This document shows positions 2,442-36,579 of a DNA stretch of 64,000 nucleotides, piece after piece; position 1 is the first letter of the stretch, and each line of letters begins with the position of its first letter. Origin of the DNA: Azolla caroliniana (taxonomy: Eukaryota; Plantae; Polypodiophyta); assembly GCA_043228905.1 (NCBI GenBank), contig JBHGNT010000007.1:6510001-6574000 (forward strand). Reading direction: 5' to 3'. The translations under genes were made by a program, and so were the position numbers. The notes under the pieces were generated by a model. That model searched no databases, was not told where the DNA came from, and saw only the letters and a list, made by a program, of their open reading frames with translations.

Positions 2442-2714
2442 GTTTTGAGGGCATGTATAACTGCAAATAATTCCTTTTCTTGAATGGTATACCGACATTG
2501 AGCAGAATCAAGTTTCTTACTCTCGAATGTTATTGGTTTACCATCTTGATATAAGACAACACCTATAGCATAATTGCTTGCATCGGTTTCAACCTCAAAA
2601 GGTTTTGAAGGATCAGGTAAAAGAAGTGAAGGAGCCTTGCATACCAGGTCCTTGAGTTCCTTAAAGGCGAGGTCTAATGTAACATTCCAGACAATAGGTT
2701 TTGTACACTTATGC

Positions 2715-3654
2715 TGTCGTGAAGAATGTGCTTCACGATATAAAAATGAGCTTAAATGTTGTATTTAATAATATTTGAGAGACTTGAACCCACATCCTTA
2801 TATACGAAGTACAATGTACATACCACTAGGCTAGGCTATTTATTTGTAAAAGTGTGTAATAATTGTGCTTCATGATATAAGAATGAAGCTATATATTGTA
2901 TTAAGTAAAATTGAGAGATTTGAACTCTCAACCTTGTATGCCAAACACAAAGTATACACCACTAAGCTAGGTTAGTTATTTTAGAATGCATTTTCATCAT
3001 TATACTTATCCCATATCTATTTTCATACATGGGAGCTCAGCATGATGGCTACCATGCATCACGTGCAATACATGTGCGCCAAATGGCGATCATGCATTAC
3101 ATGTAACTCATGCATTGCATGCATGCCATGCTCCCATACATTACCATATGCATGGCAACACTTATATAAAGAGGGGCAAGGAAAACAAGAGGGAAGGAAT
3201 CAAGAGAGAGTGAGAAAATAATACAATCAATTAAAGAAGACTAGCTCATTGGGTGGAGAACCTCTCGTTTCGAAGTTGAGGTCGTGGGTTCAAATCAAGG
3301 GTCGGTAGAGAATGTGTTCAGTTTGCGATCAAGGATTGTAAAGTTGGTAAAATATTGTCTTTCTAATATACATCATGTTTATATCAAATGCTCTTGCTTC
3401 TTGATTCATACTTTGTCTCAATCTTCCTTATTAAATCATATTTTGTCTCTATCTTGCTTCTTGAATCATATATTGTCTCTATCTTCTATCTATTCTCATC
3501 TCTCTCTCACACACACATTACTCGTAACTCTTCTTCTTGCTACTCTTAACCTTTCTAACATCACCATACAAGCCTTATTAAAATTTAAGTTCCTTCAACT
3601 CCCCTTAACCTTCGTCCCTACGACTTCGCCGCACGAACCACAACTACCCCGACA
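2715..3654 (+). mobile_element. Solo LTR (940 bp) with Phygy-type termini
   Basis: TGTCGTG...CCCCGACA ends; 4-bp TSD ATGC/ACGC; removing it restores the host frame (KGQTR|KCTKPIVW); TATA-like cttatataaag near 3162. Confidence 0.85.
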
Positions 3655-4631
3655 ACGCGTTTGACCTTTTAGAAGATCAGTAAATGGCGTCGTCAATTGG
3701 GAGTAATTACGAAGGGATTTTCACAAAAACTCGACAAAACCAAGGAATGATCGAACTTCTCGAATATTCCGAAGAGTGGGCCAAAGCTTGATTTTCTCGA
3801 TGTGAGAATGATCAATTTTAACTCCTCGTTCAGTTATGAGATGTCCAAGATAAGTAATTGATGTCTTGAAGAACTCACATTTTGAGATCTTCGTATAAAA
3901 TTGTTTGTCACACAATGTTTGTAAAACAAAGCGGACATGTTTAGCATGTTCTTCTAATGTACGGCTATAAACTAAAATATCATCCAAGAAAAAAACGACA
4001 AATTTTCCAAGCTGTTCTCGGAAAATGTCATTCATTTCTTGTTGAAATGTAGCCGGAGCATTGGTCAAACCAAAAGGCATAACCAAATACTCATAATAGC
4101 CATAGCACGTACGAAATGTTGTTTTAGGAACATCGTCCTCACTTATACGAATTTGATGGTAGCCAGTACGGAGATCAAGTTTCGTAAAATACCGAGCTCC
4201 CTAGAGACGGTCAATTAGATCGTTAGCCCGGGGCAATGGATACGAATTCTTGATCGTCACTTTATTCAAGCGTCGGTAATTAATACACGTACGCCATGTG
4301 CCCTCTTTCTTTTTTCAACCAAGAGAACTAGTGCACCCCATGGAGATTTACAATAACGTATATAACCCATTCGTAAATAGTCCTTGAGTTGCTTATATAC
4401 CTCATCCTCTTCGGATCGACTTAAGCGATAAGGAGGTATACTTATTGGTGCAACACAAGGTACAATATCTATAGGATGGTCTATATTACGTTTAGGAGGT
4501 AACCCATCTGGTAGTTCACTTGGAAAAACATCACGAAAATCATTTAAGATTTCATCAAGTTGTTGTTCAAAATAAGTTAATTGAACCGAGACATTATTGA
4601 TATTGTAAACGTGAATGTCCGGATCAAGTAT

Positions 4632-4720
4632 TGTCAAGAATAGTACTAAAGCAAAGAGGGAATTAGTACTAAAGAAGAGAAGTACTATTAGTACTAAGAG
4701 GACGGGACTGCGTAAGATTC

Positions 4721-4802
<82 letters not shown>

Positions 4803-5132
4803 AGAAGAGAGATAGCGAGGAAGAGAGAGAGAGAGACGATGATAACAACTAATATATTATGTGAAGGATAAGTACAAAATGGCTAAGAGGCTTAAGACTA
4901 GCGTTGAACCAATTTGGTTCAACATAATGCCTAGTGCCTTCTTTTATAGTGTTCTCAGGAGTAATCCTTAAGCTTCTAGAATGTTCAAGAGAAATCTAGA
5001 ATATACATTAATTTCCTATAATAAAACTTAAATGAAAATAATATCCTACGTATTACAATAGATGGTATAATGGCCAAGAGCTCGACCCATATAACATAAG
5101 GTCATGGGTTCGAGTCTTGTCATATCATGGCA
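4632..5132 (-). repeat. 3' LTR of the Tcn1-like element, containing a (GA)n tract
   Basis: Near-identical to 16656-17124 apart from (GA)n length and scattered substitutions; TG...CA ends. Confidence 0.9.
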
Positions 5133-7717
5133 CTATCTCCCCCTGAAGGCGACAAGTGGAACGAGTCGACACTGATTGCGGACCGGGTTTGTCCGGATAC
5201 TTTCGATGGAACTCAGCAAGAAGATCCTAAGCATTGGCGACATGCTCGACGGGTTCCCAATTACGTTCACTCGGACTATAGCCGAGCCAATCGACCAAAT
5301 AATAAAGTTTGTTGCAAACAAATTTGGAGTTGAGGATGGCAGCAACTTCATACTCCGGGCCGACGTCTAACTCAAGCGGGGGCGACGATGGTGTAACACG
5401 ATTGGGAAGAGTGTTTGCTTTATAAGGTTCAAGAAGAGAACTATGGAAGACATTATTATACGCAAACTCCGCAAACTGGAGAATCTCGGCCCAATCGTCC
5501 TGTTGATAACTCAGGAAACATAGGAGATATTGCTTCAGCGTTTGGTTTGTTCGTTCTGCCCGCCCATCGATCTGAGGATGGTAGTCGGAGGAGAGGTTGC
5601 AAGAGACCTTGAGCATCTTGAAGAGATGCTGCCAAAATTTGGAGACAAATTGCGGTCCTCGGTCACTGATGATACTGTCTGGGAGGTCATGATGCCGAAA
5701 TACCTCACGCATGACAAGGGCGGCGGTTTCCTCTCTAGTGATGGCCTTAGTACACGGCACAAAATGTGCCATCTTCATATATCGATCGACGACGGTTAAG
5801 ATAGCATCGAACCCCTTCGAGACCGGCAGATCTGTGATAAAATCAAGACAAATAGACTGTCACGGCTTTCTTGGAATCAGTAAGGGTTCCAACAAGCCAT
5901 ATGGATGGTGTCGTGGCATCTTTGCTCGGCAGCAAGCATCACAGGTCTGAACGGAGTCATTGACAAAACGTCGCATATGGGGCCACCCAAAGGATCGTTG
6001 AACTAGATCCAACATCTTAGTGCTATCGAAATGTCCCACCATATGGGTGTTGTGACAACTTTGGACGATTTGAAGGCGACAGGAGCAATCGGGGACATAT
6101 ACAAGCTTTTTAAAGAATAACAAACCATCATGATATTCGAATTGTCGGTAATCCATACCTGGTTGCTAAGACTGGGAACATGATGCCCAAGAGGTATTAA
6201 TGTGCGCCAGAATGTCTTGAGCAAAATTGTTCGTCTTCAAATTCGCACGTATGGTGCCGATAATCTGGGAATCCATTGGGGTGTGAAAAATCCGCGTTGT
6301 GTGCAATCGTGTTGGTTCCAAGATTACTTGCTTTTGATTATCGAATGTGGGATCACCAGGATGAGGTGCAAGATATGAACGTCATGATAGTGCATCTGCC
6401 TTTCCTTGCTGCTTCCCCGGTCGATATGCGATTTTGAAATCAAAATGTGTGAGGAATTGAGCCCACCTAGCTTGTCGTCGATTTAGCACACGAGCGTTCT
6501 GGAAATTAGAAAGATTCTTGTGATCACTGAAGATGATGACCTGATGTGGAGAGCCCTCCAAAAAATGCCGACATTGCACAAATGAATCCACGATTGCTAA
6601 TAACTCCTTGTCATGTATTTCGTAGTTGATTTCCGCAGCATCGAATTTGCGCGAATGGAAAGCCACAAGATGTGACTCTTCTTTATCTCCTTGTTGAGAA
6701 AGGATGCTACCGACGGCGAAATCTGATGCGTCGGCCTCCATGATGAATGGTTTGCTTGTATCCACATGGGCTAGAATAGGTGCTGATGTAAAGGCTTTCT
6801 TAAGATGCCGAAAAGCCATGTCCGCTTCATTGGACCAAAGAAATGCTTGTCCCTTCTTTGTAAGTTGTGTGAGAGGTAAAATAATCTTCGAGTAATCCTG
6901 TATAAACTTGCGGTAGTTGTTAGCAAAACCTAGAAAACATTGTATATCTCATACTGGCCGTGGAATTTGCCACTCTAGCACAGTTTGGACTTTAGCTGGA
7001 TCCATGGCCTAGAAATTCCACTTGCTTGCAGTCGAAGCTACATTTTTCTAGCTTGGCATAAAGACCATTCTCGCGGAGTCGGTTTAGTACTAATAGTACA
7101 TGAGAATCGTGCTCCTCCTAGGTCTTCGAATAAATCAGTAGATCATCCAGATAGATGATCAAACCGATATCCAAGAGGTCTCTAAATATATCATTTCCCA
7201 TGTGTTGGAAGACTGCAGGTGCATTGGTTAGACCGAACGGCATAACAGTATATTCAAAATGCCCATACCACGTGCGAAAGGCGGTCTTCCATTCATCTCC
7301 CGGTCAGATCCCCACGAGGTTATACGCTCCTCGTAGATCGATTTTTGTAAAAAACTTGACAGCATTAACTCGCTCTAAAAGACTTGATATAAGAGGAAGT
7401 GCATACCTATTCCGGATGGTGACCTTATTTAAGCCGCGGTAATCAACAACAAGACGAAGTGAGCCATCTTTCTTCTTGACAAAGAAGATGGGTGCTCCGG
7501 CCGGAGATTTCGAATGACGAATAAACCCGCTTGCCAAGTTCTCCTCTATGTAGGCTCAAAGGACTTCTAACTCGGTGGGTGACAAGTTGTAGATTGGTCC
7601 CCATGGTGGCTCTGCTCCTGGTTGTAAATTGTAGGGACAATCATAGGGACGATGATGAGGAAGAGTACTGGCTTTTACCTTGTCAAATACGTCGGCATAA
7701 GGATGATATTTCACCGG

Positions 7718-8411
7718 TGTCGTGAAGAAAACCGCCCACAAGGGGAATCGGAGGAACAAGGCGTGGTAAACGGCTCTACACACACACGAGCGCCAAGAAG
7801 TACCTAAGGACGAAGTAGGTACATACGAGGATCCTAGGTGGGTAGATTCGGTTGGTATGCAGTTAATGCCAAACGGCCTCTTGACGGGCTATAAAAGGAA
7901 GAGGGAGAATAGAAGTGGGGTATCTCGCACGGAGAGGACGAAGTGCTGCCGAACCGATTTCGGGGCCTCTCTCTCACTCCCGCTTTCTCTGTCTTCTGCT
8001 CCATCGCGTACCTGTGCAGGTTTGGAGGAGGCTTGCGCTGTTCCGTGGAACGCCCCGAGTGCGTCCTGCAGCTCCTCCGACCTGTTTTCCCTTTCTGTGC
8101 GTCGCGACATACAGGGGTCGGCATCTGTTCGCCGCCCTGTTCGTTTCGCTAGTATCTATTTCGTGCCCCACCGTGGGTTGTAATACTTTAGTCTGTTATT
8201 TTCTTGCATTCATAAGTACATATCTTTCGTTGTTGCGTCCATTTGCGTCGGCGTTTATTTGTGATCTCTGTTTGTTGGGCCGTGTCCCTGTGCAATCTTC
8301 GGTTCTGTGTAATCGGGTCTCTCTCTCTTACTCCTCTCTCTCTTGCTCTTCGGTCCGAGACCCCCGTGGTCCCTCCTCCTTTCTGCACGCAAGGGCGTAG
8401 CAACCCCGACA
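7718..8411 (+). repeat. 5' LTR
   Basis: TGTCG...CGACA ends; TATAAAA at 7890-7896. Confidence 0.97.
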
Positions 8412-8414
8412 TCT

Positions 8415-8432
8415 TGGTGAACCCGACGTGAA
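8415..8432 (+). promoter_or_regulatory. Primer binding site, tRNA-Trp
   Basis: TGGTGAACCCGACGTGAA is the reverse complement of the 3' end of plant cytosolic tRNA-Trp as I recall it (...TTCACGTCGGGTTCACCA). Confidence 0.85.
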
Positions 8433-10581
8433 AGAGGCGGCAGAAGAGCAGAAGATGAGGGGGTCGGATCTCGCAGAGGCCATGGCTTCGGCCGTGGATC
8501 GCATTGTAAACGCGTGCGAGATCACCGGTGCCCTCGACAGAGCTATTGAGGCGGTCGTCGGCACGATCGGCCGGTTCGATGGGAAGGATGCCACGAAGTA
8601 TTTGGCGTCCTACGGTGCAGAGATGCTGATGCGGGACATTCCGGAAGAAAGGCGTCTTGCCGGATTTCCCCGAGTGGCGATGCCGAGCATCCATGCGGAG
8701 GTGCTCGAGGTGCGGACGGAGAGCCGTACCTGGGAGGAGTTCGAAGGTCGGCTCCTAGAGAAATACGGGCTGGACGACGCGCTCCGGCTTTCGAAGCGAA
8801 GGTTCATGGATTGGGTGGAGTCCCCGGGGAAGGGAAGAAACGCGTCGGCGCTCCTCCGGGAGTTCGAGGAAAACTTTGCGCGCCTTTCGGCGCTCGACCG
8901 AACCATCCTGGACACGAGCCGGGTCTTGCTGTTTGTCAAGTCGGTCGACGAACGGGATCGGGAGCACGTGGGCCTCTTGCTGGAAACCGAAGACGGGCTC
9001 ACTACGGACTGGGCGGCTGTCAGGAAGGTCTGTGGCCGTTTCGACAAACGGCGAGAATGGGCGGATAACGGTGCAACCGGGTCGGGCTCGGTCGCAGCAA
9101 GGAAGCTCGATCCAGCGCCACAGGTGCGAAAGGAAGAGACCCGAGAGTGGTTGGATACCGGTTCGGCTTCGACCGGCGTAGTCAGAGGCTCAACCGGAGG
9201 AGCGGCGCTGGAGGAATTGACGAAGGCGATAAAGGACCTCCAAATCGCGCAGGCCCGAAGGGAAGGAGGCGAACCGGCTCGTGACCGACGGCCGGCGGCA
9301 GGAAACAGGTGCATGTGGTGCGATGAAGTCGGCCACATTCGGAAGGACTGCGGCGACTTCGCGGAGGCGCTGAGGAACAGGGTGGTGTACCTGTGGGAAG
9401 GACGGGTGCATGCCAGCGACACCCGAAGGGCCCTGAGCCGAAACGACGGAAAGGGTGGTATGAAAAGGTTGATGGAAGAGGCGGCGGCCCGACACGCGGA
9501 AACCGTCCACTACTCGGCGTCGGCCGGCATTCGAGTCGGGGGCGGCGAGGCCCGAAGGGAAAGCAAAGCCGGATTCTGGCCGACGATGCTGGAAGGCCTT
9601 GCCGGTGCAAGGCTTAAAGGGGAGGAATCGGACCGTGCGGAGAAACGGGTACGGGAGATGACCGGGTGGAGCGACCCGGTCGAGGAAAAGACGGGCTTCG
9701 TGGAAGCCGCTTGCCGGAACTACGAGGCTCTGGTAGAAGAGAAGCGGGTGGGGAAACCCGGGACGACCGGGCCCTCACAACGATACGAGACCCGGTCCGG
9801 GCCACGACGGGACGAAGCCGGCGGGGCCGGTACGCAAGATAAACCCCAGAAGGGCGGGTACCGTCTGGGGACGGAGATAGAAAGAACCACGGACTTACGA
9901 AAGGTCCTGGAGGAACGGATCCTCGACAGCAAGGTGGAGCTGTCGCTACGGGAGGTGCTGGGAATCGCCAAGAAGGAGTTCCACGACTCCATCGTGGACT
10001 TGGTGAAACGGAAGAGGCTGTCAGCGGAGACAGAACCGGAAAGACCGGTGGAAGTGCGGACGACGCACCTAGACGACATGGCGCTGGGAGACGAGTGGGC
10101 GGAAAGCCACTATTCGAGACCGCACTGGGCCCGAGCGACCACGGAAACCCCGGTGAAGATCGGCGATGTCCAGGAACCGGTGATAGCTTTGGTAGACCAC
10201 GGATCGGAGATCAATTTGATGTCCATGGACTTCTATAAGAAGGGCAAATGGCCGATCAACACCAAGCACGGGTGGAAAATAAGGGCAGCAACGCGCGCCA
10301 CCGAGGAACTGCACGGGGCCTGTCCGAATGTGCGAGTCAAGATCGGCGACGTCGAGATTGACCAGCACTTCTTCGTGCAGGAGACGTCTTCGCATCCGGT
10401 CATACTGGGAGAGCCGTACATCACGGCGGCGCGAATGGAAACCAAGGTGCTGGACAATGGTTCGGCCTATGCGCGGGTCAAGAGCCAAGACGGGCGCCAT
10501 TCGGTCCAGTTTTTGACGGTTAGGCCGAACCACGAGCGTAACCGCGACTCCCTCGGTTCCGATAACCGAGAGGATTTTTAG
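8428..10581 (+). CDS. gag: Gag-protease polyprotein (ORF1); first ATG at 8455
   Basis: CMWCDEVGHIRKDC zinc knuckle; aspartic protease ALVDHGSEINLM...VILGEPY. Confidence 0.9.
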   Translation: MKEAAEEQKMRGSDLAEAMASAVDRIVNACEITGALDRAIEAVVGTIGRFDGKDATKYLASYGAEMLMRDIPEERRLAGFPRVAMPSIHAEVLEVRTESRTWEEFEGRLLEKYGLDDALRLSKRRFMDWVESPGKGRNASALLREFEENFARLSALDRTILDTSRVLLFVKSVDERDREHVGLLLETEDGLTTDWAAVRKVCGRFDKRREWADNGATGSGSVAARKLDPAPQVRKEETREWLDTGSASTGVVRGSTGGAALEELTKAIKDLQIAQARREGGEPARDRRPAAGNRCMWCDEVGHIRKDCGDFAEALRNRVVYLWEGRVHASDTRRALSRNDGKGGMKRLMEEAAARHAETVHYSASAGIRVGGGEARRESKAGFWPTMLEGLAGARLKGEESDRAEKRVREMTGWSDPVEEKTGFVEAACRNYEALVEEKRVGKPGTTGPSQRYETRSGPRRDEAGGAGTQDKPQKGGYRLGTEIERTTDLRKVLEERILDSKVELSLREVLGIAKKEFHDSIVDLVKRKRLSAETEPERPVEVRTTHLDDMALGDEWAESHYSRPHWARATTETPVKIGDVQEPVIALVDHGSEINLMSMDFYKKGKWPINTKHGWKIRAATRATEELHGACPNVRVKIGDVEIDQHFFVQETSSHPVILGEPYITAARMETKVLDNGSAYARVKSQDGRHSVQFLTVRPNHERNRDSLGSDNREDF

Positions 10582-10637
10582 AGAGGGCTGCCAAGGCGTG
10601 GGGCCGCGACAGTCCGGACACCCCGGGAAAACCCCAC
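10572..10637 (+). promoter_or_regulatory. Putative -1 frameshift signal: G_GAU_UUU plus H-type pseudoknot
   Basis: Heptamer at 10572-10578 immediately before the gag stop; 6-nt spacer; stem 1 10585-92/10608-15; stem 2 10598-603/10632-37; the -1 frame is open into pol. Confidence 0.8.
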
Positions 10638-10685
10638 ACCTGTACGATAAAACCAAAGAAACCTTGTACCATAGGTAGGGAATTT

Positions 10686-13600
10686 TTGTTCTCCGACAGC
10701 GGAGCGTGTACGATAGTCGGCATCGGCGGCCGAGAGAAGACAAAGGCGGAGGGGAGACTTCGAGCGTGCGGAGTTCTCGGCCCTGACGAGGAAATCAACG
10801 GAGCCGTGGAGGCGGTCTCATTCGACGACACCTTGGGAATGCTGGGAAAGGTAGTCGAAGAAGGCCTTAACGAAGACCGGACGATACCGGTGTGTTCCGA
10901 GGAGATGTACGGAGTCATCGCGGACTTCGGTCGAGGGCTCGAGTCAGTTCGGACGGCCCACGTAAGCACCAAGTACAAGACTGTGGACCGGAAGGTAAGG
11001 CCAGTCGCGGCACCCTTACCGGAGGACAGCGCGTCGAGAATCAAAGGGGTTGCATCGGACCCTAGTCTACGAGATCCGGCCTGCATAGGACACACCTTCA
11101 CCGACGAGACGCTCCGAGAGCTCAAAATCGGTGGGGGCGGGTTCCTACTGCCGGCGGAGGAAGACCGGTTTCGGAGAATGCTCGGAAGGCACGGGAAAGC
11201 CTTCGCATTCTCGCCGGAGGAAATCGGGTGCGTTGACCCGACGATCGTGGAGCCGATGGTGATATTCACGGTACCGCATGTACCATGGAATCTCAAGCCA
11301 ATCCCGGTTCCGAGAGCTCACATCCCGAAGTTGATGGAGCTGCTGAGGCAGAAAGTTGATATGGGAATTCTCGAGCCGTCGAGTGCCCCATATTCGAATC
11401 GATGGTTTACCGTACCGAAGAAAAACGGTTCGTTGCGCTTCATCCAGGACCTGCAGCCGGTCAATCGAGTGACCATTCGGAACGCAGGGATCGGACCGAC
11501 CATAGACGAGTTCGCGGAGGCCTTCGCCGGAAGGTCAATTTACTCGGTCGGGGATCTATACTCAGGGTACGACCAGTTCCAGCTAGCCGTGGAGAGCAGA
11601 GACATTACGACGATGCGAACTCCCCTCGGCCTAGTTCGGATGTGTACACTGCCGCAAGGAGGGACCAACTCGGTGGCCCACATGGTGAATGCGATGAACA
11701 AGGTTCTGAGGGACTGTATCCCGGACATCACCATGCCGTTTCTGGACGACATCCCGATCAAGGGATGCCCGGTGGAAGAAAAGGACGAGACGATCGGGCC
11801 GGGCGGATGTCGGCGATTCGTGGCGACGCACATCGACGACTGCGAGAAGGTGCTGCAAAGGCTAGAGGATGCGAGACTCACCTTCTCCGGGGAGAAGTCG
11901 GCCTTCGGGCAGTCAGAAATCATGGTGGTCGGACACCTGTGCGGACCATATGGCCGGAAACCGTCTCCGGCAAAGGTAGAAGCCATCTCCGCGATGAAGC
12001 CCGACTGCAGCTCGGTCACGGAAGTACGGAGATTCCTGGGGGCATGCGCGTTCTACCACATATGGATCCCGCATTACGCACACGTCGCGGAGCCACTGTA
12101 CGGGTTGCTGAAAAAGGGGCGAAGGTTCGAATGGCTAGACGAGCACGCGGAATCGGTCCGGAAGCTGAAAGAGGCCCTTACAGCGGCACCGGCACTCCGG
12201 AAGGCGGTATACGGGAAGGGTACCCCGGTATTCATAACGGTGGATACCAGTCCGACCGGGATCGGATGGGTCGTGAACCAGGAAGACGAGGACGGCGATC
12301 GGTTTCCGATCCGATTCGGCGCGAAAGTCCTCAGTGAACGGCAGCGAGGATACGCCCAGGTTAAGCGCGAACTCTGGGGTATTGTTTCGGCGGTTAAGGC
12401 CGACAAAGACTACCTGATAGGGACAGAAGTGATCATCGAGACGGATTGCCTGCCGATTCTCGGTATGGTTTCCGGATGCGCGACTCCGGACCTGGCGATG
12501 CTCAGGTGGATAGCGTACATCAAGTCCCTGGACCCGGAAATACGACACATTTCCGGGAAAGACAACGCCATGGCCGACATGCTTTCGAGGGCGAGGTTCG
12601 ACGACGAGGGCGGCATGGTTTCGGAAGACGAAGAAGTCGGCGTGGATTTCTTCGAGGCGGCATACGTAACGACCGACGGGATGAGCACTCCGGCGCTTAA
12701 CGAGTTCGACGCGAGCAAGTACGACGGGGAGTGGTTGCAGATCGGCGGGTTTTTGAAGACAATGACGCCCGATGCGTCATGGACGAAGGACGAGGCCAAC
12801 CGGATCCGGAAGAAAGCATATCGATTCTTTCTCCGAGATGGGCATTTGTGGAAGCACCCGAAGAAGAGGAACGGCGTCCCGCTCCGGGTGGTGGCGATGA
12901 AGGGAGAACAGGAGGAGCTACTGGCGGCCTACCACGACAGCCCTTGGGCTGGACACCGTGGAACGTGGGCGACATTTGAGAAGCTGAAGGGGAAGTACTG
13001 GTGGCCGGGATTGTACCGGGACGTGCATCGGTTCGTGTCAACTTGCGAGAGTTGTCAGATGCACTCGATAGTCCGACACCGGGACGGGCTTCGCCCTACG
13101 TACCCTCCGACTATCCACTTCAAATGGATGGTAGATCTGGTGACGATGCCGATGGGGGTAGGACAGATGCGGTATCTGGTCCTAGCGCGGGAAGACCTGA
13201 CGAACCAGGTGGAAGGCCGAGCCCTTCAGAACAAGACGACCGCGGCCGTGTGTCGGTTCCTGATCGAGGACGTGATATGCCGGTACGGGTGCGTCGGGAA
13301 GATCGTGGCTGACCGAGGGGAGTTGGACGCCGAGGAAGCCGCGGAGCTGTTCGATCGGCTGGGAGTCAAACTCTCGCTCACCACTGCGTACAACCCGGAG
13401 GCGAATGGAAAGGTGGAGCGCGGACACGGGCCGATCGTTAAAGCGCTGGTTCGGGCATGCGGAGGCCAAGTCGGTAACTGGCCGCGACTTCTACCTTATG
13501 CTTTGTGGGCCGATCGGACTACGCACAGTTCGGTAACCGGGTACATGCCGACAGAGCTCATGTTCGGCCAGAAGCCGATCATGCCGATGGAACGAACAAT

Positions 13601-14069: not shown

Positions 14070-14141
14070 AGGCGGGCCGGTTTTCTCCGTGCCAACTTAA
14101 TTTGGCGCATGCCGGTGGATGCGCGGTTAGGTGGGGGCGGA

Positions 14142-14835
14142 TGTCGTGAAGAAAACCGCCCACAAGGGGAATCGGAGGAACAAGGCGTGGTAAACGGCTC
14201 TACACACACACGAGCGCCAAGAAGTACCTAAGGACGAAGTAGGTACATACGAGGATCCTAGGTGGGTAGATTCGGTTGGTATGCAGTTAATGCCAAACGG
14301 CCTCTTGACGGGCTATAAAAGGAAGAGGGAGAATAGAAGTGGGGTATCTCGCACGGAGAGGACGAAGTGCTGCCGAACCGATTTCGGGGCCTCTCTCTCA
14401 CTCCCGCTTTCTCTGTCTTCTGCTCCATCGCGTACCTGTGCAGGTTTGGAGGAGGCTTGCGCTGTTCCGTGGAACGCCCCGAGTGCGTCCTGCAGCTCCT
14501 CCGACCTGTTTTCCCTTTCTGTGCGTCGCGACATACAGGGGTCGGCATCTGTTCGCCGCCCTGTTCGTTTCGCTAGTATCTATTTCGTGCCCCACCGTGG
14601 GTTGTAATACTTTAGTCTGTTATTTTCTTGCATTCATAAGTACATATCTTTCGTTGTTGCGTCCATTTGCGTCGGCGTTTATTTGTGATCTCTGTTTGTT
14701 GGGTCGTGTCCCTGTGCAATCTTCGGTTCTGTGTAATCGGGTCTCTCTCTCTTACTCCTCTCTCTCTTGCTCTTCGGTCCGAGACCCCCGTGGTCCCTCC
14801 TCCTTTCTGCACGCAAGGGCGTAGCAACCCCGACA
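14142..14835 (+). repeat. 3' LTR
   Basis: Copy of 7718-8411. Confidence 0.97.
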
Positions 14836-15386
14836 CCGGAAGTTGCACTAAGGATTCCTCCTTAATATTGCTGGAAGGATGTACTGATATGGCAAATAGG
14901 AACGTTGCCTCCTTGTGTCCTTCTTCGCGTAGTTGACGTAATGAAATGGTCGAAACTCGATGAGTAGATTCTTGGGGTTGTCGATACCGGACTTCTCTTG
15001 TTCTCCAATCTATGTCTGGATTGTGTAGTTCAAACCAAGGTAATCCCAGGACAATGGGATGCTTTGGACTACTAATAATATTAAATGATACTACACACAC
15101 AAAACTACCTAGGACAACCTGAATGGGTTCTGACTCCTCTACAATTTTCCCGGAACCAATGGGACGACCATCAATGACTACTACAAATGCGGGGCAAGGA
15201 AGTTTTCTTAAGGATATTTGAGAAGCTTGGGCAAAATTTCGATCCATGAAACAGGAATTGGCTCTGGAATCTAAAAGTGCTAGGACTTGTACTGGGGGAG
15301 TACTTTTAGTACTAACCATGACTTGGGCTAGGAACACATTGCTAACTTGCTTGGAGGGAATGGAACCACTAATGGGTTGTACAGAT

Positions 15387-16655: not shown

Positions 16656-16745
16656 TGTCAGGAATAGTACTAAAGCAAAGAGGGAATTAGTACTAAAGAA
16701 GAGAAGTATTGTTAGTACTAAGAGGACGGGAATGTGTAAGATTCC

Positions 16746-16793
<48 letters not shown>

Positions 16794-27100: not shown

Positions 27101-27730
27101 GAACGCGAATGCTTTGCCATGTTGCTCCAACATCTCTCGAAACCGTTTTTCTTCTTCTTGTAAGAGGAACCCACCTCCACCGATCCGAAGTTTCTTCCGG
27201 GTCTCATCTGTGAAGGCATGTCCGATATCCACGGACTTCCGAAGTGTCGGATCTCCCGAGACTTCTTTCTTCTTTTGTTCGCTATCGGCGGGTAGTGGTC
27301 CCGCGGCCGGTTTCACCTTCTTCTCCACGGTCTTGTATTTCGTACTTACCATTGCTTCTTCTTTGCGGAGCGCATCCGGCCCCATTTTCGCAACGATCTC
27401 GTACATCTCGACCGATTCCACCGGGACTACCCGGTTCCCTTGGCTTTTATCTTCCGCAAGCTCTTCAAGCCGTTGTAGTGTATTCCCATAGAACACTTCC
27501 TCGATCACTCCCACGATTTCTTCGTCTTCTTTTATTATTGATGCCGACCGTAACTTATCCTCCACTTGTCGGTATTGTTTCTTCATTCCTCCGGTTACGG
27601 CCGTGTACGTAGATGCCCCATCCGGGCCGATTCGTACTTGTTTTGCTCCGAGAGGTTTCTTCCTGTGTAGGGTATCAGGGCTTCTCGGACTATCACTTCC
27701 CCACTCCGCAACAGTCCGCTTTAAAAATCC
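24119..27730 (-). pseudogene. pol: pol with a single TGG>TGA nonsense codon near 25358
   Basis: ORFs 25358-27586 and 24119-25348 are in the same frame (GHRGT*ATF); the -1 frame is open from the slippery site at 27730. Confidence 0.9.
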
Positions 27731-29760
27731 ATTCTCACTTGGGACAAGAGTTCCCTCTTGTTCCTTTCGTGATTTGCCGGTACCGTTAGAAATTGGACGG
27801 ATTTCCCTCCGTTTTGGCTCCGAATTCGCGCAAAAGCCGCACCACTATCGAGCACCTTCGTCTCCATCCGTGAAGCCGTGATAAAGGGTTGGCCGAGGAT
27901 GACAGAATGTGAAACCTCATCCTGCACAAAGAAATTTTGGTCAATTTCGACATCCCCGATCTTTACCGTCACATCCGGACAAGCCGCAAATAGGTCTTCT
28001 GTCGTTTTCGTGGCTGCCCGAATCTTCCATCCATGGTTGGTGTTTATAGGCCACTTCCCCTTTCGGTAGAACTCCTTGGACATCAAGTTGATCTCCGATC
28101 CGTGATCAATCAATGCTAGCACAGGTTCTTTGATGTTGCCGATTCGGACCGGAGTCTCAGTAGTCGCACGTGCCCAGTGTGGCCTTGTATAGTGGGAGTT
28201 CGGAATTTCGCCTTCCACTTCGGTGTCGTTCATTGAAACGGTATTTGCATTCACCCTTGGAGCATTTTCCTCCGTACTTTGTCTCTTCCTTTTCACGAGA
28301 TCCACGAGAAGATCGTGAAACTCCTTCTTCGCTATTCCGAGTAGTTCCCGCAGCGAAAAATCTACCCGGCTATCCAAGATTCTTTCCTCGAACACTCTTT
28401 TCAAGTCGGTTTGTTGTTCTATGTCCGAGGCGAGCTTGAATGCCGGAGTCGCCTTTTCTTTTCCCTTACCTCCGGAGTTCCAGCTTTCCGGTATCTTCGA
28501 TGGTCCGGCCGCATCCTCCGTGCGCCGTCGTTTCTCGTCCACATACACCTCATGTAATTGACACAGGGCGTATATACTATTCTTGTCGACAGGGCACTCC
28601 CATCCCGTAGCTTCCCGGACGCCTTCCGCGGTGTTTCGGATATCGTTGGAGTCGGTTTTCTCGGTGTTTCCTAGCACCTCCGGCCAGAAAGACGCCTTCG
28701 CTCCTGATGACTCCCCGACACATATTCCCGCGGTTGTCGCATAGTTGCTTCTTGCCGCTAACTCCTCCTCGAGCACCTTCTTCATGCCGCCTTTCCGGAA
28801 GTTCAGTCGGAGTGGCTTCCGAGAGTCCATCGAATGAATCCGGTTTCCCTCGTAGTAGATGAGATCCCGTCGTAGCGCCTCCTTATGGTCGTCGCAATCC
28901 CTCCGATCGTGTTCGGCGCTATCGCACCATATGCACCGTCGATCCGTATATTTGGAGCTTGTGGGGCGGTCATCCGACTTCTTCACCATCGTGATCTTTA
29001 GATTCTCCATCTCCTTCAGCAGCTGCTCCACCGTAGACGCGTCGACTCCCTTCTCGGCCGTAATCTCCCGAGCCCTCGGTTGATGGTCTTCCAGTCCCGT
29101 TCTCGGTTTCGGAATCGGTTCCGAAACCCTCTTTTCTTCGTTGGCAAGCCATTGCCCCCTCTTCGTGTACCGCGCGACGATATCCCGCACGCTTTCCCAT
29201 GTTTCGGTGAGGCCGCTTTCGGTGGTCGTGTCCTCAAGAAGCACTCCGAGATCTTTCCGATCCCGGACGTCCACAGCTCGCAAAAACATGATGACTTTGT
29301 CCGGCGCAAGAATAGTTTGATCTCTCGCGGACAACCTCCCGAACCGACTTTCGAATGTCGAAAACACTTCGAGGACCTTCAGCCCCTTACCTGACGTTTC
29401 CACCCAATCCTCGAATCCCCTCCGCGTTGCCTTGGAGGAGTCCTCGATGGCAAACGTGGTCTTTAACGCCTCTTCGAATGCTTCCCACGTCGGATTTTGT
29501 TGTTGCAACCCGTGGATACTCCCTTGAAGCCCGTCGGTCGCCACCCGGTTAAAGGATGTCACTTGCAGTCCTTCCGAAGCCCGGCACCGGAGCATCTCCG
29601 CCTTGTAGTCCTGCAAATATCGCGACACATCCTTACCATTAAATTGCCCGTTGCGTTGCACGAGCCGCTCTACTGATGCCGAAATCTCCGACATCGTGCG
29701 TTGTTCTTGAAGCATCCGTTCGAACATCGCCATCATATTGTTAGCTTGTTGAGCCTCCAT
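27721..29760 (-). CDS. gag: Gag-protease (ORF1)
   Basis: ORF 27721-29847, with a likely ATG at 29760 after the PBS; CIWCDSAEHDRRDC; ALIDHGSEINLM; ends MDF* at GGATTTT. Confidence 0.88.
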   Translation of the reverse strand: MEAQQANNMMAMFERMLQEQRTMSEISASVERLVQRNGQFNGKDVSRYLQDYKAEMLRCRASEGLQVTSFNRVATDGLQGSIHGLQQQNPTWEAFEEALKTTFAIEDSSKATRRGFEDWVETSGKGLKVLEVFSTFESRFGRLSARDQTILAPDKVIMFLRAVDVRDRKDLGVLLEDTTTESGLTETWESVRDIVARYTKRGQWLANEEKRVSEPIPKPRTGLEDHQPRAREITAEKGVDASTVEQLLKEMENLKITMVKKSDDRPTSSKYTDRRCIWCDSAEHDRRDCDDHKEALRRDLIYYEGNRIHSMDSRKPLRLNFRKGGMKKVLEEELAARSNYATTAGICVGESSGAKASFWPEVLGNTEKTDSNDIRNTAEGVREATGWECPVDKNSIYALCQLHEVYVDEKRRRTEDAAGPSKIPESWNSGGKGKEKATPAFKLASDIEQQTDLKRVFEERILDSRVDFSLRELLGIAKKEFHDLLVDLVKRKRQSTEENAPRVNANTVSMNDTEVEGEIPNSHYTRPHWARATTETPVRIGNIKEPVLALIDHGSEINLMSKEFYRKGKWPINTNHGWKIRAATKTTEDLFAACPDVTVKIGDVEIDQNFFVQDEVSHSVILGQPFITASRMETKVLDSGAAFARIRSQNGGKSVQFLTVPANHERNKRELLSQVRMDF

Positions 29761-29798
29761 CTCCTTGCCACCCGTCTTCACGTCGGGTTCACCAACTG

Positions 29799-30582
29799 TG
29801 TCGTGCCTTTCGGCTCCGGATCGTTGCGTGAGTCGGGTGGGAACCACAGAGGTCTTGGACTAGGAGAAAGAAGTTCGTGAGATAGAGATTAATTATGAGT
29901 AAATAGCAAAGAGAAAGATAAGAAACTCGTGAATCACACGAGTATACTATATTAATTGGTACTTAGGGTGTTAAGAGAGAAGTAGATGTATAAATCGTGA
30001 ATCCCACGAATAATTTTTGTATTGAAAATATATTTGATCCAAACAATCAACAACAACTACAATGTGCTCCCCGTCCTTATATAGTGATGGGAGAGACTAA
30101 GCATAGCTACATGCTTTTTCTAATATGATCATGCACACTAAATGTGCATGTGATGCTTTTTTTTATTTCCTAAGTATAGGGCTCATGCACGCTAGATGTG
30201 CATGAGTTATTTTTAGTGTCTCGTGTTTTTCTTTTTCATATATTAAAAAAATACACGATTTACCTTTTAATAAAGGTATGCATAAATAAAGGTCTTATAC
30301 GTATTAAATCTATTTTTAAAACACTTAAGATAAGTTAATGTAATGGTAAGGTTGGGGTTTGTCAACGTGGAGGTGCAGAGTTCGAATCACGCCCTGCGTA
30401 ATAGTGAGTATTTCGTTTTATTTTACATTTATGTCTCTTTATCCGGCTCTTCCTTGCCGCCGGTATGCCGTTTTCTTCCTTGCCGGTATGCCGTTTTCTT
30501 CCGGTTCTCACCGAGCACTCCATTCTCTATCCGGAGAGACAAAAATATAATTTCCACATAGTGTGCAACCTACACTACGACA
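29799..30582 (-). repeat. 5' LTR (784 bp; two copies of the 23-bp unit)
   Basis: Followed on the minus strand by the tRNA-Trp PBS. Confidence 0.93.
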
Positions 30583-31408
30583 CCGTGCCGTCGTAATGTA
30601 TGGCTCGCCGAGTATCACCGGGCGCGAGGAGGTCTCCTGCACAAAGAAGTGTTAATCTATCTCAATGTCGCCGATCTTTACGCGTACATTCGGGCACACA
30701 CTATGCAACTCCTCCGTAGCGCGTGTCGCCGCGCGTATCTTCCACCCGTGCTTGGTGTTGATCGGCCACTTCCCCTTTCTGTAGAAGTCCATGGACATCA
30801 GGTTGATCTCTGAGCCATGTTCTATCAATGCCACCACCGGCTCCTGCACGTCCCCAACCCGGACAGGGGTCTCCATAGTGGTCCTGGCCCAATGCGGCTT
30901 CGCGTAGTAGTTGTCCATCAACTCATCCTCTAGGGTTGTGTCTTCTAGGTGCGTCATCCACACCTCCACGGGCTTCTCCGGTTCCGGCTCCGTCGAGAGC
31001 CGCTTCCGCTTCACCATGTCCACAATGGAGTCATGGAACTCCTTCTTGGCGATTTCAAGCACCTCCCTCAGCAACAACTCCACCTTGCTGTCGAGAATCG
31101 GCTCCTCGAGGACCTTCCATAGGTCCGTTAACCTCTCAATCTCTGTGCTCAACCGGTAACCAGCCCGGTGTTGCCAGCATCGTTCTGCTTTGGTCCAAAC
31201 CGGTTGTTGTACCGTTGTGAGGGACCGGCACCCCCAGCCCTTCCCGCGCGCTTGTCTTCTACCAAAACCTCGTAGTTCTGGCATGCAGCTTCCACGAAGC
31301 CAGTCTTTTCTTAAACCGGATTGTCCCACCCGTTGACCTCCCAGATACGCTGTTCCGCGCGGTCCGCCTGCTCCTTCCTTAGTCGTACCCCGGAGAGGCC
31401 TTCCAGCA

Positions 31409-33495
31409 AACCGTCTTCGGCAAAGATAGAAGCCATCTCTATAATGAAGGAAGAGTGTAAATCGGTTACGGAGGTGCGGAGGTTCCTAGGCACGTGCGCG
31501 TTCTACCACATCTAGATTCCGCACTACGCACACGTCGCGGAGCCACTCTATGGGTTGCTAAAGAAGGGGCGCAAATTTGAATGGGGCAAGGAGCATACGG
31601 AGTTGGTCCGGAGACTGAAGGAGGCGCTTACCGCGGCACTGGCTCTCGGGAAAGCGGTCTACGGCAAGGAGGTTCCCATCTACATAACCGTTGACACAAG
31701 CCCGACCGGCATCGGATGGGTGATCAATCAAGAGGACGAGGGCGGTGCGCGGTTCCCGATCCGGTTCGGGGCGAAGGTCCTCAGTGAGCGACAGTGAGGA
31801 TACACCCAAGTTAAGCGTGAACTATGGGGTATCGTTTCGGCGGCTAAGGCCGACAAAGATTATCTTATAGGGACGGAGGTAATAATCAAGACGGACTGCC
31901 TATTGATTCTCGGTATGATTTCCGGATGCGCGACTCTGGACCTGGCAATGCTCAGGTGGATCGCATACATCAAGTCCCTAAATCCCGAGATACGGCACAT
32001 CTCCAAGAAGGACAACGCCATGGCCGACATGCTTTCGAGAGCGCGGTTCGACGACGAGGACGACATTGTCTCGAAGGACGAGGAAGTCAGCGTAGACTTC
32101 TTTGAGATGGCATACATAACGAGGGAGAGGAGCCCTCTGGCGCTTCACGAAATCTGTGAAGGCGAGTACAACGAGGAGTGGCTCCAGATCGGTAGGTTCT
32201 TGAAGACAATGACACCAGACGCAACGTGGACAAAGGAAGAGGCTAACCGGATCCGAAAGAAAGCTTACCGGTTCTTCCTACGGGACGGGAACATATGGAG
32301 GCTCCCAAAGAAGCGAGGCGGCATTCCACCCCGCGTAGTGGCGAGAAAGGACGAGCAGGACGAGTTGTTAACGGCGTACCACGAGAGTCCTTGGGCCACG
32401 TTCGAGAAACTGAAAGAGAAGTGTTGGTGGCCAGGGCTGTACTGGGATGTGTACCAATTCATGACGACATGTGAAAACTGTCAGATGCACTCCACAATCC
32501 GGCATCGAGACGAGATGCACCCAACCTACCCGCCGACCATCCACTTCAAATGGATGGTGGACTTAGTGACAATGCCGATGCGGGTGGGGCAGATGCGGTA
32601 TCTGGTGCTTGCACGGAAAGATTTAACGAACCAAGTGGAAGGTCGCACGCTGACGAACGAGACGACTGCGATGGTGTGCCGGTTCCTGATCGAAGAGGTA
32701 GTGTGCCGATACGGATGCATGGGGAAAATCGTGGCAGATCGGGGAGAGCTAAACGCGCAGGAAGCTGAGGAGTTGTTCAACCAGTCCGGGGTTAAGCTCT
32801 CCCTCACTACGACGTACAATCCGGAGGTGAACGATAAGGTAGAGCACAGACACGGGCCGATCATGAAGGCTTTGGTACGAGCGTGTGAAGGGCAGGTCGG
32901 GAATTGGTCGCGGCTTCTACCCTACGCGTTCTGGGCGAACCGGACTACACACAGTTCGATGACGGGGTTCATGCCGGCGGAGTTGATGTATGGGCAAAAA
33001 CCGATTATGCCGGTGGAACGGACGATCAGTTCATGGGTCGCGGTGGACTGGAAGGACAAGATGAGCCGGGAAGAGTTGCTGGCGGCACGGATTCGGCAGC
33101 TCGAGCGACGACCGGAGGACGTGGGGCAGGCGATGGCGAAGCTGCGTGCGGCGCGTGAAAGGAACAAAGGCCGGTTCGATCGAACACACCGGCTGAGACT
33201 GAAGAAGATCGAGGAAGGCGACTGGGTGTTAGTGTACGACAATAGCCTTGATAATCAGCACAAGGCGGTGCGTAAGTTTGCGAGGAGATGGTTCGGGCCC
33301 TACACGGTGACAAGCGCGAACGACAACGGGACGTATCATCTCGCAGAGCTTGATGGGACGCGGATAGCGGTACTGGTGGCTGATAAGAGGGTCAAGATGT
33401 TCAAGAAGTGGCACGAGGACAAACCGGACCCGGTGAGCGATGGTAGCGGCGATGCCCGAATCAAGGAAGGCGAGGGTTCGGAAAACGACGAGTGA
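31409..33495 (+). pseudogene. pol: pol 3' part (RNaseH-integrase), with stops
   Basis: ORFs 31555-31797 and 31903-33495 are homologous to the intact pol. Confidence 0.88.
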
Positions 33496-33567
33496 ACTAG
33501 GGCCGGTTTCCGCCAAGGTTGTTCCTACCTGGACGTACCGGTGGACGTGCGGTTTGCTGGGGGTGGA

Positions 33568-34203
33568 TGTCGTGGAGAAAACCGCCCCTAGGAAGAATCA
33601 AAGGGGAAGAAGCGTGACCCAATCCTTTTCGTGTGTGTGTGTGTGTGTTTATGAATTGTACATAGCTAGGAATAGATTGGCTGACGTACATATGTACTAG
33701 GAAGGGTATTAATTGTCTAGGGAATCGATGCGTATCTCTGTCCGAAAGGATAGAAAATAAAGTTGAGATGTTTTGATGTATCGGCCTCCTCGGCGACTTA
33801 TAAAAGGGAGGGGAGGAGAAGGAGATAGGTATCGCGTTTTGGTGAGAACGAAGTGCTATCGGACTGGGAACCGAGCTCTCTCCTCCTCAATCGTTGCTCT
33901 CCACTATGTTTTTGTGTCGGTTGCCTCTGTTGCGTGTATGCCAATGTGCTTCCAGTGGAGGCTCCACTGTGCGTTCTCTGTGTCGTCTGTGTGTGTGCGT
34001 GGGACCTCCATTTTGGGTCTATTGCCAGTTTTCCGGTTGTAATCGTTGTTGACATCGTAATTGAATCTTCCGTTCCCGTCTCTCTCTCTCTCTCTCTCTC
34101 TGAGTTTCTGTGAATCGCTCTCCCTCTTCTTTCTCACGCTCCTTGGTTCAGGGCCCCCGCAGTCCCACCTCATATACACACGCGAGAGCGTAACAACACG
34201 ACA
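33568..34203 (+). repeat. 3' LTR of the inverted element
   Basis: Preceded by PPT TGGGGGTGGA; TGTCG...CGACA ends. Confidence 0.9.
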
Positions 34204-36159
34204 CTGTACTCAGGCATCTTCATCTTTCCCTTTTCTTTGCGCGTAAACCATCTTCTCGGTTTCTGGCGAAGGAACTGCACGACCGAGTCTCCACTACTTG
34301 CCAGCTCTTCATCTGAATGGTTGTTCCAACTCAGTTCCTCATTCGGCCCACTTAACCGGAATGAGATCAAAGTCTCTTCCAGAGCTCCGATTTCTTCTTC
34401 ATCCAGGGGTATCTCGCCCTCACTGGCTTCATCCTCAAAATTCAGAATGGAGTTGATGGGGGTTGGAGATGCAGACAAGTACCAGGAAGCTTACTCATCG
34501 AATACGACATCATGGCTTACTCGAACCTCTTTTGTTCGGATATTATAGCACTTATAACCCTTTTGATCATCCGAGTGGCCGACTAAGATACACTTCTCGG
34601 CTTTGGCGTCTACCTTCCTCCGCTTCTCCTTCGGCACATGCACACATGCTATGTTGCCGAACACCCTAAAGTGTGCCAAGTTCGGCTTCTTCCCGAAATA
34701 CAACTCATGTGGCAACACTCCTTCATTTGCAGATATCTGAGTCTGCAGATAAACGGTTGTCTTGACTGCTTTGGCCCTATAGAACTTCGGCATATGCTTC
34801 TCCTCGAGCATCGCTCATGCCACTTCCTCTATCAACCGATTCTTCCACTCGGCCACGTCGTTCTACTGTGGTGTGTATCTGCAAGAGAATTTGCGTCGAA
34901 TTCCTTCCTTTTGCAGATAACTAGAGAACTGGTTGGAAAAATACTCCTTTTCGCCCTCGATCCTGAGGCATTTGATCTTCCATCCGTTTTCCCGTTCAGC
35001 AAGGCTCTTCACCTTCAACAAACAGGAGAAGACTTCACTCTTCTTCTCGATCATGCATGCCCAGGTATGCCAAGTGAAGTCATCAATGAAGGGCACGAAA
35101 TATCGGCTCCCTCTAATGCTCACCTTCTGTGTTGGTGCCCACACATCCGAATGGATTAAATCGAGCTTATTTCGCCTCCGATTTCACTCGTTGGGGAATG
35201 GAAGTCAATAATGCTTCCATAACTTGTTGGCTTTGTAAATTTGGCCCTTTTGTCCATTGAATTTTGGCAAGCCGAAAATGATTTTCTTTGTCTGCATCTC
35301 CCAAAGCTGTGAAAAGTTGGCGTGGTCGAACCGCTTGTCCCATATGTCAATGTTTGATTCGACTTTCTACCCTTTGGCGAACATAGCAGTGTCGACGTCG
35401 TTCGTTTCGAGGATAAATATCCTCCCTTCTCAACGCCCTTGTGTGATAACCTTGCCTTCTTCTTCGATGAAGCATCTAAGGTGAGTAAATCGAACTTGCA
35501 TGCCCTGGTTGACAATTTGTTTGACTGACACCAAGTTCTTGGTTATTGTCAGCACATGCAAGACATTTCTCATGATTCCTCTCTGGCCGACATGGCTTAG
35601 AGGGACATCGTCGATGTGTTCAATGGGGTGAGGGGTGTCATCGCCAATTTCAACGACCCTTGGCTGCTCCGGCTTCTCCAGAGTCGAGAACCACTCCTTG
35701 TGATTCATCATGTGGTTCGATGCGCCGGAATCCACATAGCACACCTTGTTCGATCTTGAGGTGTTCAACGCCATTGAGTTGACCTCATGTTTCATTACAA
35801 AGGTTGGGCTTGTTCCGGCTCGCCCTGAGCCTTCTGTGTTGTGCGATCTTTGACGCCTTTCTGCGTCACCTCAGTTCGAGTCGGCGTTCTTTTTACACCA
35901 CTTGCTCTCTCTATGGCCCTTTCGGCCACAGTACCAACAGTCCATTGCAGCCTTCGCTTGTCGGCTTCCTACACCGCCTTGACTCCCCCTACTCGTGGGG
36001 GGTCCGAAACTGCCATCGGCCTTTCAATTATGCCTCAAGTTCTGCTCCTATCGGCCACCTCCATTGCTTGCCAATCTTCCTCGTCCCCCACGACCACAGG
36101 GCCTACCTGCCTATGTGTACAACATCTTGCATCGGTGTGCATACTCATCGACGCACTTG

Positions 36160-36442
36160 TGTGGTTCTCTAAACCAAAGGGAGAGACCGTTACATCAGGT
36201 TCTTAAGGCAGCCGTTTTCTGTCCCCCTCGATCTCCTCCCATCAATCCCCTTTATTCCTCTATTCGTGTGACCATAAAGTGCCTATTGAATCCCTTCCAC
36301 CTGGTATTCCTCAATACTCAATTAATATTACATTATTTATACATGTTTGTACATAAAGACAATTTTAGCGTGCATCCGTGCACACCCCCATTCATGCGCA
36401 TACGGCTTTGTTTTCTTCCTATGGCTGGAATCCTTCATGACA
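36160..36442 (-). repeat. Truncated LTR related to the solo LTR at 18906
   Basis: Reverse complement begins TGTCATGAAGGATTCCAGCCATAG, like 18906; it is fused to the copia gag by a deletion. Confidence 0.75.
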
Positions 36443-36579
36443 ATGTTGTCATCACACATCCTTCTTCGACTTCTTCTCCAAGGATGGTCGGTTGTAGGGC
36501 GTGCCAAAATAGTGTTGTAGGTTTTAGGGTTAGGGTTATTGATAATGATAGTGATGATGATTAGCATTCATGACGATAG

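What the first reader, a model, noticed from the sequence alone, without database searches (positions are those of the whole stretch)
2711..36446. Every insertion with TGTCG...GACA-type LTRs has a 4-bp TSD centred on CpG or its decay product
Seen (left/right TSD): ATGC/ACGC (2715-3654), CCGG/CCGG (7718-14835), ATGT/ATGC (18906-19826), TCGT/CTGT (20048-34203), CCGT/CCGT (23328-30582), plus a one-sided ATGT at 36443. Four of five retain CG at the centre on at least one side, and the rest show TG, the deamination product. Host reading frames are restored with 4-bp duplications. Inference: this chromodomain-less integrase targets N-CG-N, possibly methylated CpG, which would steer insertions into older TEs and explain the nesting. 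The sample is only five or six sites.
Basis: partly seen in the sequence, partly recalled or inferred. Interest (0 to 1): 0.72.

Follow-up and report, generated by a model that had tools for sequence, protein, structure and literature searches.

The report
Plant retrotransposons inserting at CG sites
Five nested jumping-gene insertions in this plant-like DNA each duplicated four host letters centred on CG or on its likely decayed form TG, a preference already published for the moss 'Phygy' retrotransposons to which they likely belong; whether methylation of the CG matters is untested.

Summary
All six junctions lie at the stated coordinates. Four bases is the best duplication length at all 5 two-sided sites and restores each host frame. 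CG survives at 4 of 5, against 5.1% of host 4-mers. All 4 further junctions from other samples are also N-CG-N. A chromovirus in the same window, a control, has a 5-bp non-CG duplication.

The preference is not new. Neumann et al. 2019 (PMC6317226) list 186 Phygy elements as '4 bp (100%) (NCGN)'. These elements fit Phygy in duplication, lack of extra domains and compact layout. Placement against REXdb references could not be tested.

The integrase likely cuts with a 4-bp stagger around a bendable CG step, as foamy-virus integrase does around a pyrimidine-purine step. Methyl-CpG targeting is unsupported here: CpG supply alone accounts for the nesting (P=0.30), and decay would steer insertions to young, CpG-rich elements, not old ones. 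I found no test of methylation dependence, and no earlier scan note on it.

The parts
2711..2714 (.). left target-site duplication of e1 (ATGC; right copy ACGC at 3655-3658)
2715..3654 (+). e1: solo LTR, 940 bp, in a Ty3/gypsy RT-RNase H fragment; family assigned by its ends only; strand inferred from the ends
7714..7717 (.). left duplication of e2 (CCGG; right copy CCGG at 14836-14839)
7718..14835 (+). e2: intact 7118-bp element; LTRs 7718-8411 and 14142-14835 differ at 1 of 694 bases
8415..8432 (+). primer-binding site of e2, TGGTGAACCCGACGTGAA, also in e5 and (decayed) in e4; tRNA-Trp identity is recalled, not shown by a call
   Evidence: failed check
8401..10581 (+). e2 gag-protease frame (726 aa stop to stop, Pfam DUF4100)
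10566..14069 (+). e2 pol frame (1167 aa): RT, RNase H, integrase with D-D-E and GPY/F module, acidic tail, no chromodomain
13803..13874 (+). integrase C-terminal domain loop (approximate), with [N/H]QH in 74 of 90 homologue matches; candidate reader of the target, untested
18902..18905 (.). left duplication of e3 (ATGT; right copy ATGC at 19827-19830); no CG left on either side
18906..19826 (+). e3: solo LTR, 921 bp, in a copia polyprotein; strand inferred from the ends
20044..20047 (.). left duplication of e4 (TCGT; right copy CTGT at 34204-34207)
20048..34203 (+). e4: older full-length element (LTRs differ at 41 of 632 bases), internal inversion at about 21853-31408, host of e5
23324..23327 (.). 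left duplication of e5 (CCGT; right copy CCGT at 30583-30586)
23328..30582 (-). e5: 7255-bp element of a sister family (pol 63% identical to e2); LTRs differ at 7 of 784 aligned bases; one stop in pol
36175..36442 (-). e6: 268-bp LTR stub related to e3, other end deleted into copia gag; one flank, ATGT at 36443-36446
1..2448 (-). e0: pol fragment of the same lineage (76% to e2 pol), no LTR junction in the window
4632..17124 (-). host of e2 and internal control: chromodomain-bearing Ty3/gypsy element with a 5-bp duplication AGTAT/AGTAC, not CG-centred
17900..36100 (-). decayed Ty1/copia element, host of e3, e4 and e6 (ends approximate)

Best explanation
These are chromodomain-less Ty3/gypsy LTR retrotransposons, likely of the Phygy lineage, whose insertions duplicate four host bases centred on CG; their integrase likely picks that site from DNA sequence and bendability alone, without needing methylation. 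Shown: 4-bp duplications with a CG centre, an intact integrase in e2, and CpG decay after insertion. Inferred: a symmetric intasome cuts both strands four bases apart and must kink the central step, as foamy-virus integrase does. That favours a pyrimidine-purine step, and base contacts would narrow it to CG. The best candidate for those contacts is a conserved loop in the integrase C-terminal domain (untested). Nesting would follow from CpG supply, since young elements are CpG-rich and the old flanking DNA is CpG-poor, plus tolerance of insertions in repeats. TG/CA forms arise later, when the host methylates the new junction and 5-methylcytosine deaminates.
For: Duplication length and host frames. 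CG at 4 of 5 window sites and 4 of 4 outside junctions, against 5.1% background; P=4.5e-5 even under a model allowing any pyrimidine-purine centre. Published Phygy profile: 4 bp, 100% NCGN, n=186, no extra domain, no extra ORF. Closest solved integrases by sequence and by fold are foamy virus, then Ty3. Foamy-virus sites are VYRB with an unstacked central step, and local preferences are largely chromatin-independent (PMC4422553). The 9 sites with unambiguous outer bases are all V..B, against 46% of host NCGN 4-mers (P=9e-4; pattern noticed after the fact, e4 left out as ambiguous). Drosophila errantiviruses have CGCG targets (PMC5408687), in a species that by my recall lacks CpG methylation. 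CpG supply explains the nest.
Against: No methylation data and no genome are held, so methylation-independence is not shown. Cytosine methylation created strong target preferences for an alpharetroviral integrase in vitro (review passage, PMC11054761). e3 lacks CG on both sides. The candidate loop is only one residue longer than Ty3's, and its match to the foamy-virus Arg329 loop is recalled: the alignments did not reach that domain. Phygy placement by tree was not possible.
Confidence: 0.7

Rival explanations
1. The integrase prefers methylated CG (a 5-methyl group read in the widened major groove, or easier kinking), which directs it into silenced repeats without a chromodomain.
For: All six window sites lie in other transposons. 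CpG is the main methylated context and decays fast here. Methylation made strong target sites for a retroviral integrase in vitro (review passage). Phygy often nests in Tcn1 in Physcomitrium (PMC6911290), and Phygy domains were enriched in predicted liverwort centromeres (PMC12885004).
Against: CpG supply alone gives P=0.30 for the nesting. Decay shows methylation only after insertion. CG-containing targets exist in Drosophila (its lack of methylation is recalled). The window is a transposon nest by selection.
Confidence: 0.2
2. A host protein that binds CG (methylated or not) tethers the intasome, and the integrase itself has only a weak preference.
For: Tethering is the usual route for Ty3 and retroviruses (passage in PMC5408687). 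The integrase has an acidic tail of variable sequence.
Against: A tether gives regional bias or a fixed offset; it would not easily centre the cut on the very CG it occupies. Local base preference is chromatin-independent for foamy virus and HIV-1.
Confidence: 0.06
3. Only a general pyrimidine-purine preference (or none) exists, and the CG excess comes from a small, hand-picked sample in CpG-rich hosts.
For: Five two-sided sites only; e3 is TG on both sides; outside junctions are one-sided; the motif was chosen after seeing the sites.
Against: 4 of 4 outside junctions are CG (P=2.5e-3 under a pyrimidine-purine model), 8 of 9 overall (P=4.5e-5). The published Phygy set of 186 is NCGN.
Confidence: 0.04

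Closest known systems
Phygy lineage, non-chromovirus Ty3/gypsy (REXdb; Neumann et al. 2019, PMC6317226)
   Same: 4-bp NCGN duplication; no chromodomain or extra RNase H; no extra ORF; coding region fills the interior; nesting in chromoviruses (PMC6911290); primer site recalled as tRNA-Trp (81% of Phygy).
   Different: No direct comparison with REXdb sequences.
Prototype foamy virus integrase/intasome
   Same: Best solved match by sequence (E 3e-22) and fold (E 2e-20); 4-bp duplication; VYRB site with a kinked central step (PMC4422553).
   Different: Foamy virus accepts any pyrimidine-purine centre weakly; here it is narrowed to CG. About 21% identity; Glu aligns at the position I take, from recalled numbering, to be Ala188.
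Drosophila errantiviruses with palindromic targets TATA, CGCG or ATAT (gypsy, ZAM and Idefix subgroups; PMC5408687)
   Same: Ty3/gypsy-type elements with sequence-specific, in one case CG-containing, targets.
   Different: Insect elements, many with env; they fix all four bases, whereas here only the central CG (and weakly V..B) is fixed.
Selgy and TatI lineages (PMC6317226 supplement)
   Same: Non-chromovirus Ty3/gypsy lineages with 4-bp duplications; TatI is mostly tRNA-Trp primed.
   Different: Selgy is 4.4-6.7 kb, tRNA-Ala primed, with no NCGN motif listed. TatI carries an extra RNase H, not seen here.

Membership tests
Ty3/gypsy | Domain order protease-RT-RNase H-integrase between two LTRs | tested here: met
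   RT, RNase H, integrase order by Pfam; LTR pairs; the protease is read from a motif at the end of the gag frame and had no Pfam hit in e2
Phygy | RT/RH/INT group with the Physcomitrium Phygy reference sequences (the formal criterion) | not testable with these tools
   REXdb table and FASTA too large to read; no Physcomitrium protein among listed hits. The quick RT tree puts e2, e4 and e5 in one clade with Riccia and Adiantum proteins, apart from the window's two chromovirus-type RTs, but holds no labelled reference.
Phygy | 4-bp target-site duplication | tested here: met
   best or tied at 5 of 5 sites; single CCGG at empty-site copies
Phygy | NCGN target motif | tested here: met
   4 of 5 window sites, 4 of 4 outside junctions
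Phygy | No chromodomain, no extra (archaeal-type) RNase H, no extra ORF | tested here: met
   Pfam finds none in e2 or e5, but finds a chromodomain in the host element; gag and pol frames fill the interior; tails of 9 homologues end after the GPY/F module
Phygy | Primer-binding site mostly tRNA-Trp | tested here: inconclusive
   An 18-nt TGG-started site follows the 5' LTR of e2, e4 and e5. Its tRNA-Trp identity is recalled; 0 of 31 viral-contig matches were tRNA genes and no paper listing showed the string.
Phygy | Length 7656-9968 bp (descriptive range in one species; the paper calls size insignificant for classification) | tested here: not met
   e2 7118, e5 7255, e4 without e5 6897 bp; range; not a defining criterion
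Chromovirus (Tcn1 and others) | Chromodomain at the integrase C-terminus and, mostly, a 5-bp duplication | tested here: not met
   RT only 28% identical to the window's chromovirus-type RTs
Selgy | tRNA-Ala primer, 4.4-6.7 kb, no NCGN motif listed | tested here: not met
   lengths above the range and NCGN present; primer identity recalled only
Tat (TatI) | Extra archaeal-type RNase H in the polyprotein | tested here: not met
   one RNase H region only in e2 pol

The most novel reading that the evidence does not exclude
The Phygy integrase is a methyl-CpG-reading integrase: a conserved C-terminal-domain loop recognises the methylated central CG in the kinked target and so steers the element into silenced repeats, a chromodomain-free route to heterochromatin targeting across mosses, liverworts and ferns.
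Probability: 0.15. Interest if true: 0.75.

Novelty: new member of a known kind. Interest (0 to 1): 0.2.

Why it matters
As an observation it adds little: the NCGN preference is published for Phygy, and this window shows it in another set of copies. It does leave a clean open question. Phygy is the one plant LTR lineage that the REXdb survey reports with a sequence-specific target, that target is the main methylated dinucleotide, and my searches found no study of how it is read. e2 is nearly new (1 difference in 694 LTR bases) with unbroken gag and pol frames, so it is a good source of integrase for that test. A methylation-reading integrase would be a new targeting route; a plain CG reader would still be a useful model of base-specific target choice.

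Tried and rejected
No genome is held, so no genome-wide logo could be built.

Laying contigs of 8 run-slots on the LTR gave fragmented pieces and only 2 usable flanks; 310 and 2 loose-end rows were not shown. One further row (run X11, a variant LTR end followed by ACGT) was left out as uncertain.

The metagenome scan gave 8 loci. Six (L001-L005, L007) share nothing with the window beyond the 20-mer and were dropped as chance matches. Four of these six happen to have CCGA beside the match and would have inflated the count; read by eye on the other strand they look like an HD-domain coding motif (motif name recalled).

Viral contigs held no LTR end and no integrase relative. L006 and L008 lie in no held record.

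Phygy reference sequences were sought in supplements. The Neumann element table and FASTA are too large, the Jedlicka GFF archive is cut before Physcomitrium and holds no letters, and the RLG2 transcript is cut at 400 bases. These unseen files bear on membership and on how many of the 186 duplications are strictly CG.

The tRNA check of the primer site failed (0 of 31). Kitamura 1992 could not be opened. An 'unusually long' integrase loop was considered and dropped: it is one residue longer than Ty3's. The careful tree did not finish; the quick tree was used, and its e0 row has an artefactual long branch from a frameshift. 3-, 5- and 6-bp duplications were rejected.
Full report
What the region is. 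Bases 1 to about 42,000 are a nest of LTR retrotransposons; 44-64 kb is AT-richer and CpG-depleted. No genome is held. Seven pieces belong to one lineage: two near-complete elements (e2 7718-14835 +, e5 23328-30582 -), an older rearranged one (e4 20048-34203), two solo LTRs (e1, e3), an LTR stub (e6) and a pol fragment (e0). e1 and e3 are assigned by their ends alone; e3 also shares 48 bases at 81% with the e2 LTR. Hosts are a Ty3/gypsy RT fragment, a chromodomain-bearing element (4632-17124), a decayed copia element, and e4 itself. LTR divergence agrees with the nesting order: e2 1 of 694 inside a host with 17 of 468; e5 7 of 784 inside e4 with 41 of 632. Named homologues of pol come from the liverwort Riccia and the fern Adiantum; the closest (77-82% over the integrase) are unnamed metagenome proteins. 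The host is therefore probably a seed-free land plant (inference).

Checking the observation. All letters and coordinates are right. Four bases is the best or tied duplication length at 5 of 5 two-sided sites, and removing the element plus one copy gives a continuous host frame at 5 of 5. Other copies of e2's host have one CCGG at the empty site. CG is intact on at least one side at 4 of 5. NCGN makes up 5.1% of 24,179 host 4-mers, so this has P about 3e-5, or 5e-4 allowing any dinucleotide. The chromovirus in the same window has a 5-bp AGTAT/AGTAC duplication, so the pattern is not a property of the region.

Independent junctions. To escape circularity I looked outside the window. Contigs of runs X4 and X13 gave the flanks GCGT and ACGC. 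Two of 8 metagenome loci are true relatives (L006, L008) and gave GCGG and GCGT; the other 6 were chance matches and were dropped. All 4 are N-CG-N (P=7e-6 against background, 2.5e-3 if any pyrimidine-purine centre were allowed; 8 of 9 overall, 4.5e-5). They are one-sided, so I take the four bases next to the LTR as the duplication.

Decay. In the e4 LTR pair 17 of 42 CpG steps and 7 of 42 CHG positions changed, against 16 of 506 other positions. That makes TCGT/CTGT from CCGT, and ATGC from ACGC, plausible. e4 keeps a CG centre under either reconstruction of its first base. e3 is the weak case, TG on both sides. Of 3 close host homologues that span the site, 2 have Arg and 1 has His, so a CG target is possible but a real TG/CA target is not excluded.

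Mechanism. The e2 integrase has invariant D112, D171 and E206 in a 78-sequence alignment, folds confidently (mean pLDDT 85) and matches foamy-virus and then Ty3 integrase best. For foamy virus, a 4-bp stagger needs an unstacked central step, the site is VYRB, Ala188 and Arg329 make base contacts, and local preference is largely independent of chromatin (PMC4422553, passages; PMC9410886, passages). The 9 sites here with unambiguous outer bases are all V..B, against 46% of host NCGN (e4 left out; noticed after the fact). I infer the same geometry, narrowed to CG by base contacts. A C-terminal loop with [N/H]QH in 74 of 90 matches among 120 homologues is the candidate. It is only one residue longer than Ty3's and its match to the Arg329 loop is recalled, so this step is weak.

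Methylation. Nothing here shows that the target was methylated before insertion. The nest hosts hold 1245 CpGs and the 44-64 kb stretch 276, so CpG supply gives P=0.30 that all six sites fall in the nest, against 0.027 by length. A CG requirement would favour young CpG-rich elements (e2 10%, e5 7% CpG), not old ones. For the methyl model: cytosine methylation created strong target preferences for an alpharetroviral integrase in vitro (review PMC11054761, passage; the primary paper was not held), Phygy often nests in Tcn1 (PMC6911290, passages), and Phygy domains were enriched in predicted centromeres of a liverwort (PMC12885004, passages). Against necessity: Drosophila errantiviruses use CGCG (PMC5408687, passages), in a species I recall as lacking CpG methylation. 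I put methyl preference at 0.2.

Comparison with what is known. Neumann et al. [quoted passage not shown] Their table gives 186 elements, '4 bp (100%) (NCGN)', tRNA-Trp 81%, no extra domain, no extra ORF, 7656-9968 bp. Neither of the paper's two mentions of methylation concerns this motif. The window's elements meet the duplication, motif and domain features, are somewhat shorter, and have a primer site that I recall as tRNA-Trp but could not confirm. The formal criterion, tree placement with REXdb references, was not testable. They work like Phygy and are probably Phygy (about 0.85). Other papers seen as passages and not bearing on the verdict: PMC7466625 (also two supplement look-ups), PMC6839031, PMC13469084. 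Four searches listed no study of methylation dependence or of the structural basis of Phygy targeting; subscription papers are not covered. The scan's own notes had nothing on this sequence or topic.

Verdict. A real, correctly described feature that is already published for the lineage; interest 0.2. What remains open is how the CG is read and whether its methylation matters, and e2 is a good element to test it with.

Noticed in passing
window 21853-31408: e4 has an internal inversion from mid-gag to the end of RT, which flips e5 with it; no repeat was evident at the breakpoints by eye.
   Followed up: partly
window 2727-2981 and about 3245-3300; 5085-5125 and 17060-17115: The e1 LTR has a 119-bp internal duplication (78%) and tRNA-like or B-box-like motifs, and the chromovirus LTRs carry a similar motif. 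ARAGORN found no tRNA in the window; Rfam, run on 2600-5300 only, found none.
   Followed up: partly
window 7718-14835 and 23328-30582: These elements keep CpG above expectation (observed/expected 1.18 and 1.25), whereas 44-64 kb is at 0.2-0.7, so they supply targets for their own lineage.
   Followed up: partly
window about 13311-13322: The integrase has D-R-G-E after the second catalytic Asp (28 of 32 homologue matches; 4 are D-G-G-E), placing an acidic residue where foamy virus has a small target-contacting one (numbering recalled).
   Followed up: partly
window about 2450 and about 36175: Two deletions fuse unrelated elements: e0 pol to a chromovirus-type RNase H fragment, and the e6 LTR to copia gag.
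   Followed up: partly
L008 604-652: An LTR end of this family sits in a relative of the window's copia host, about 35 bases from the place that e4 occupies, and is cut after about 24 bases by a deletion.
   Followed up: partly
window 37265-40650: A second, decayed copia element on the + strand with no LTR pair found; a few TTAGGG-like units near 36520-36540.
   Followed up: no
window 50678-63632: A dispersed repeat family (at least six partial copies, 67-90% alike) and a 216-aa frame at 58708-59358 (-) without a Pfam hit, possibly a LINE remnant (guess from memory).
   Followed up: no
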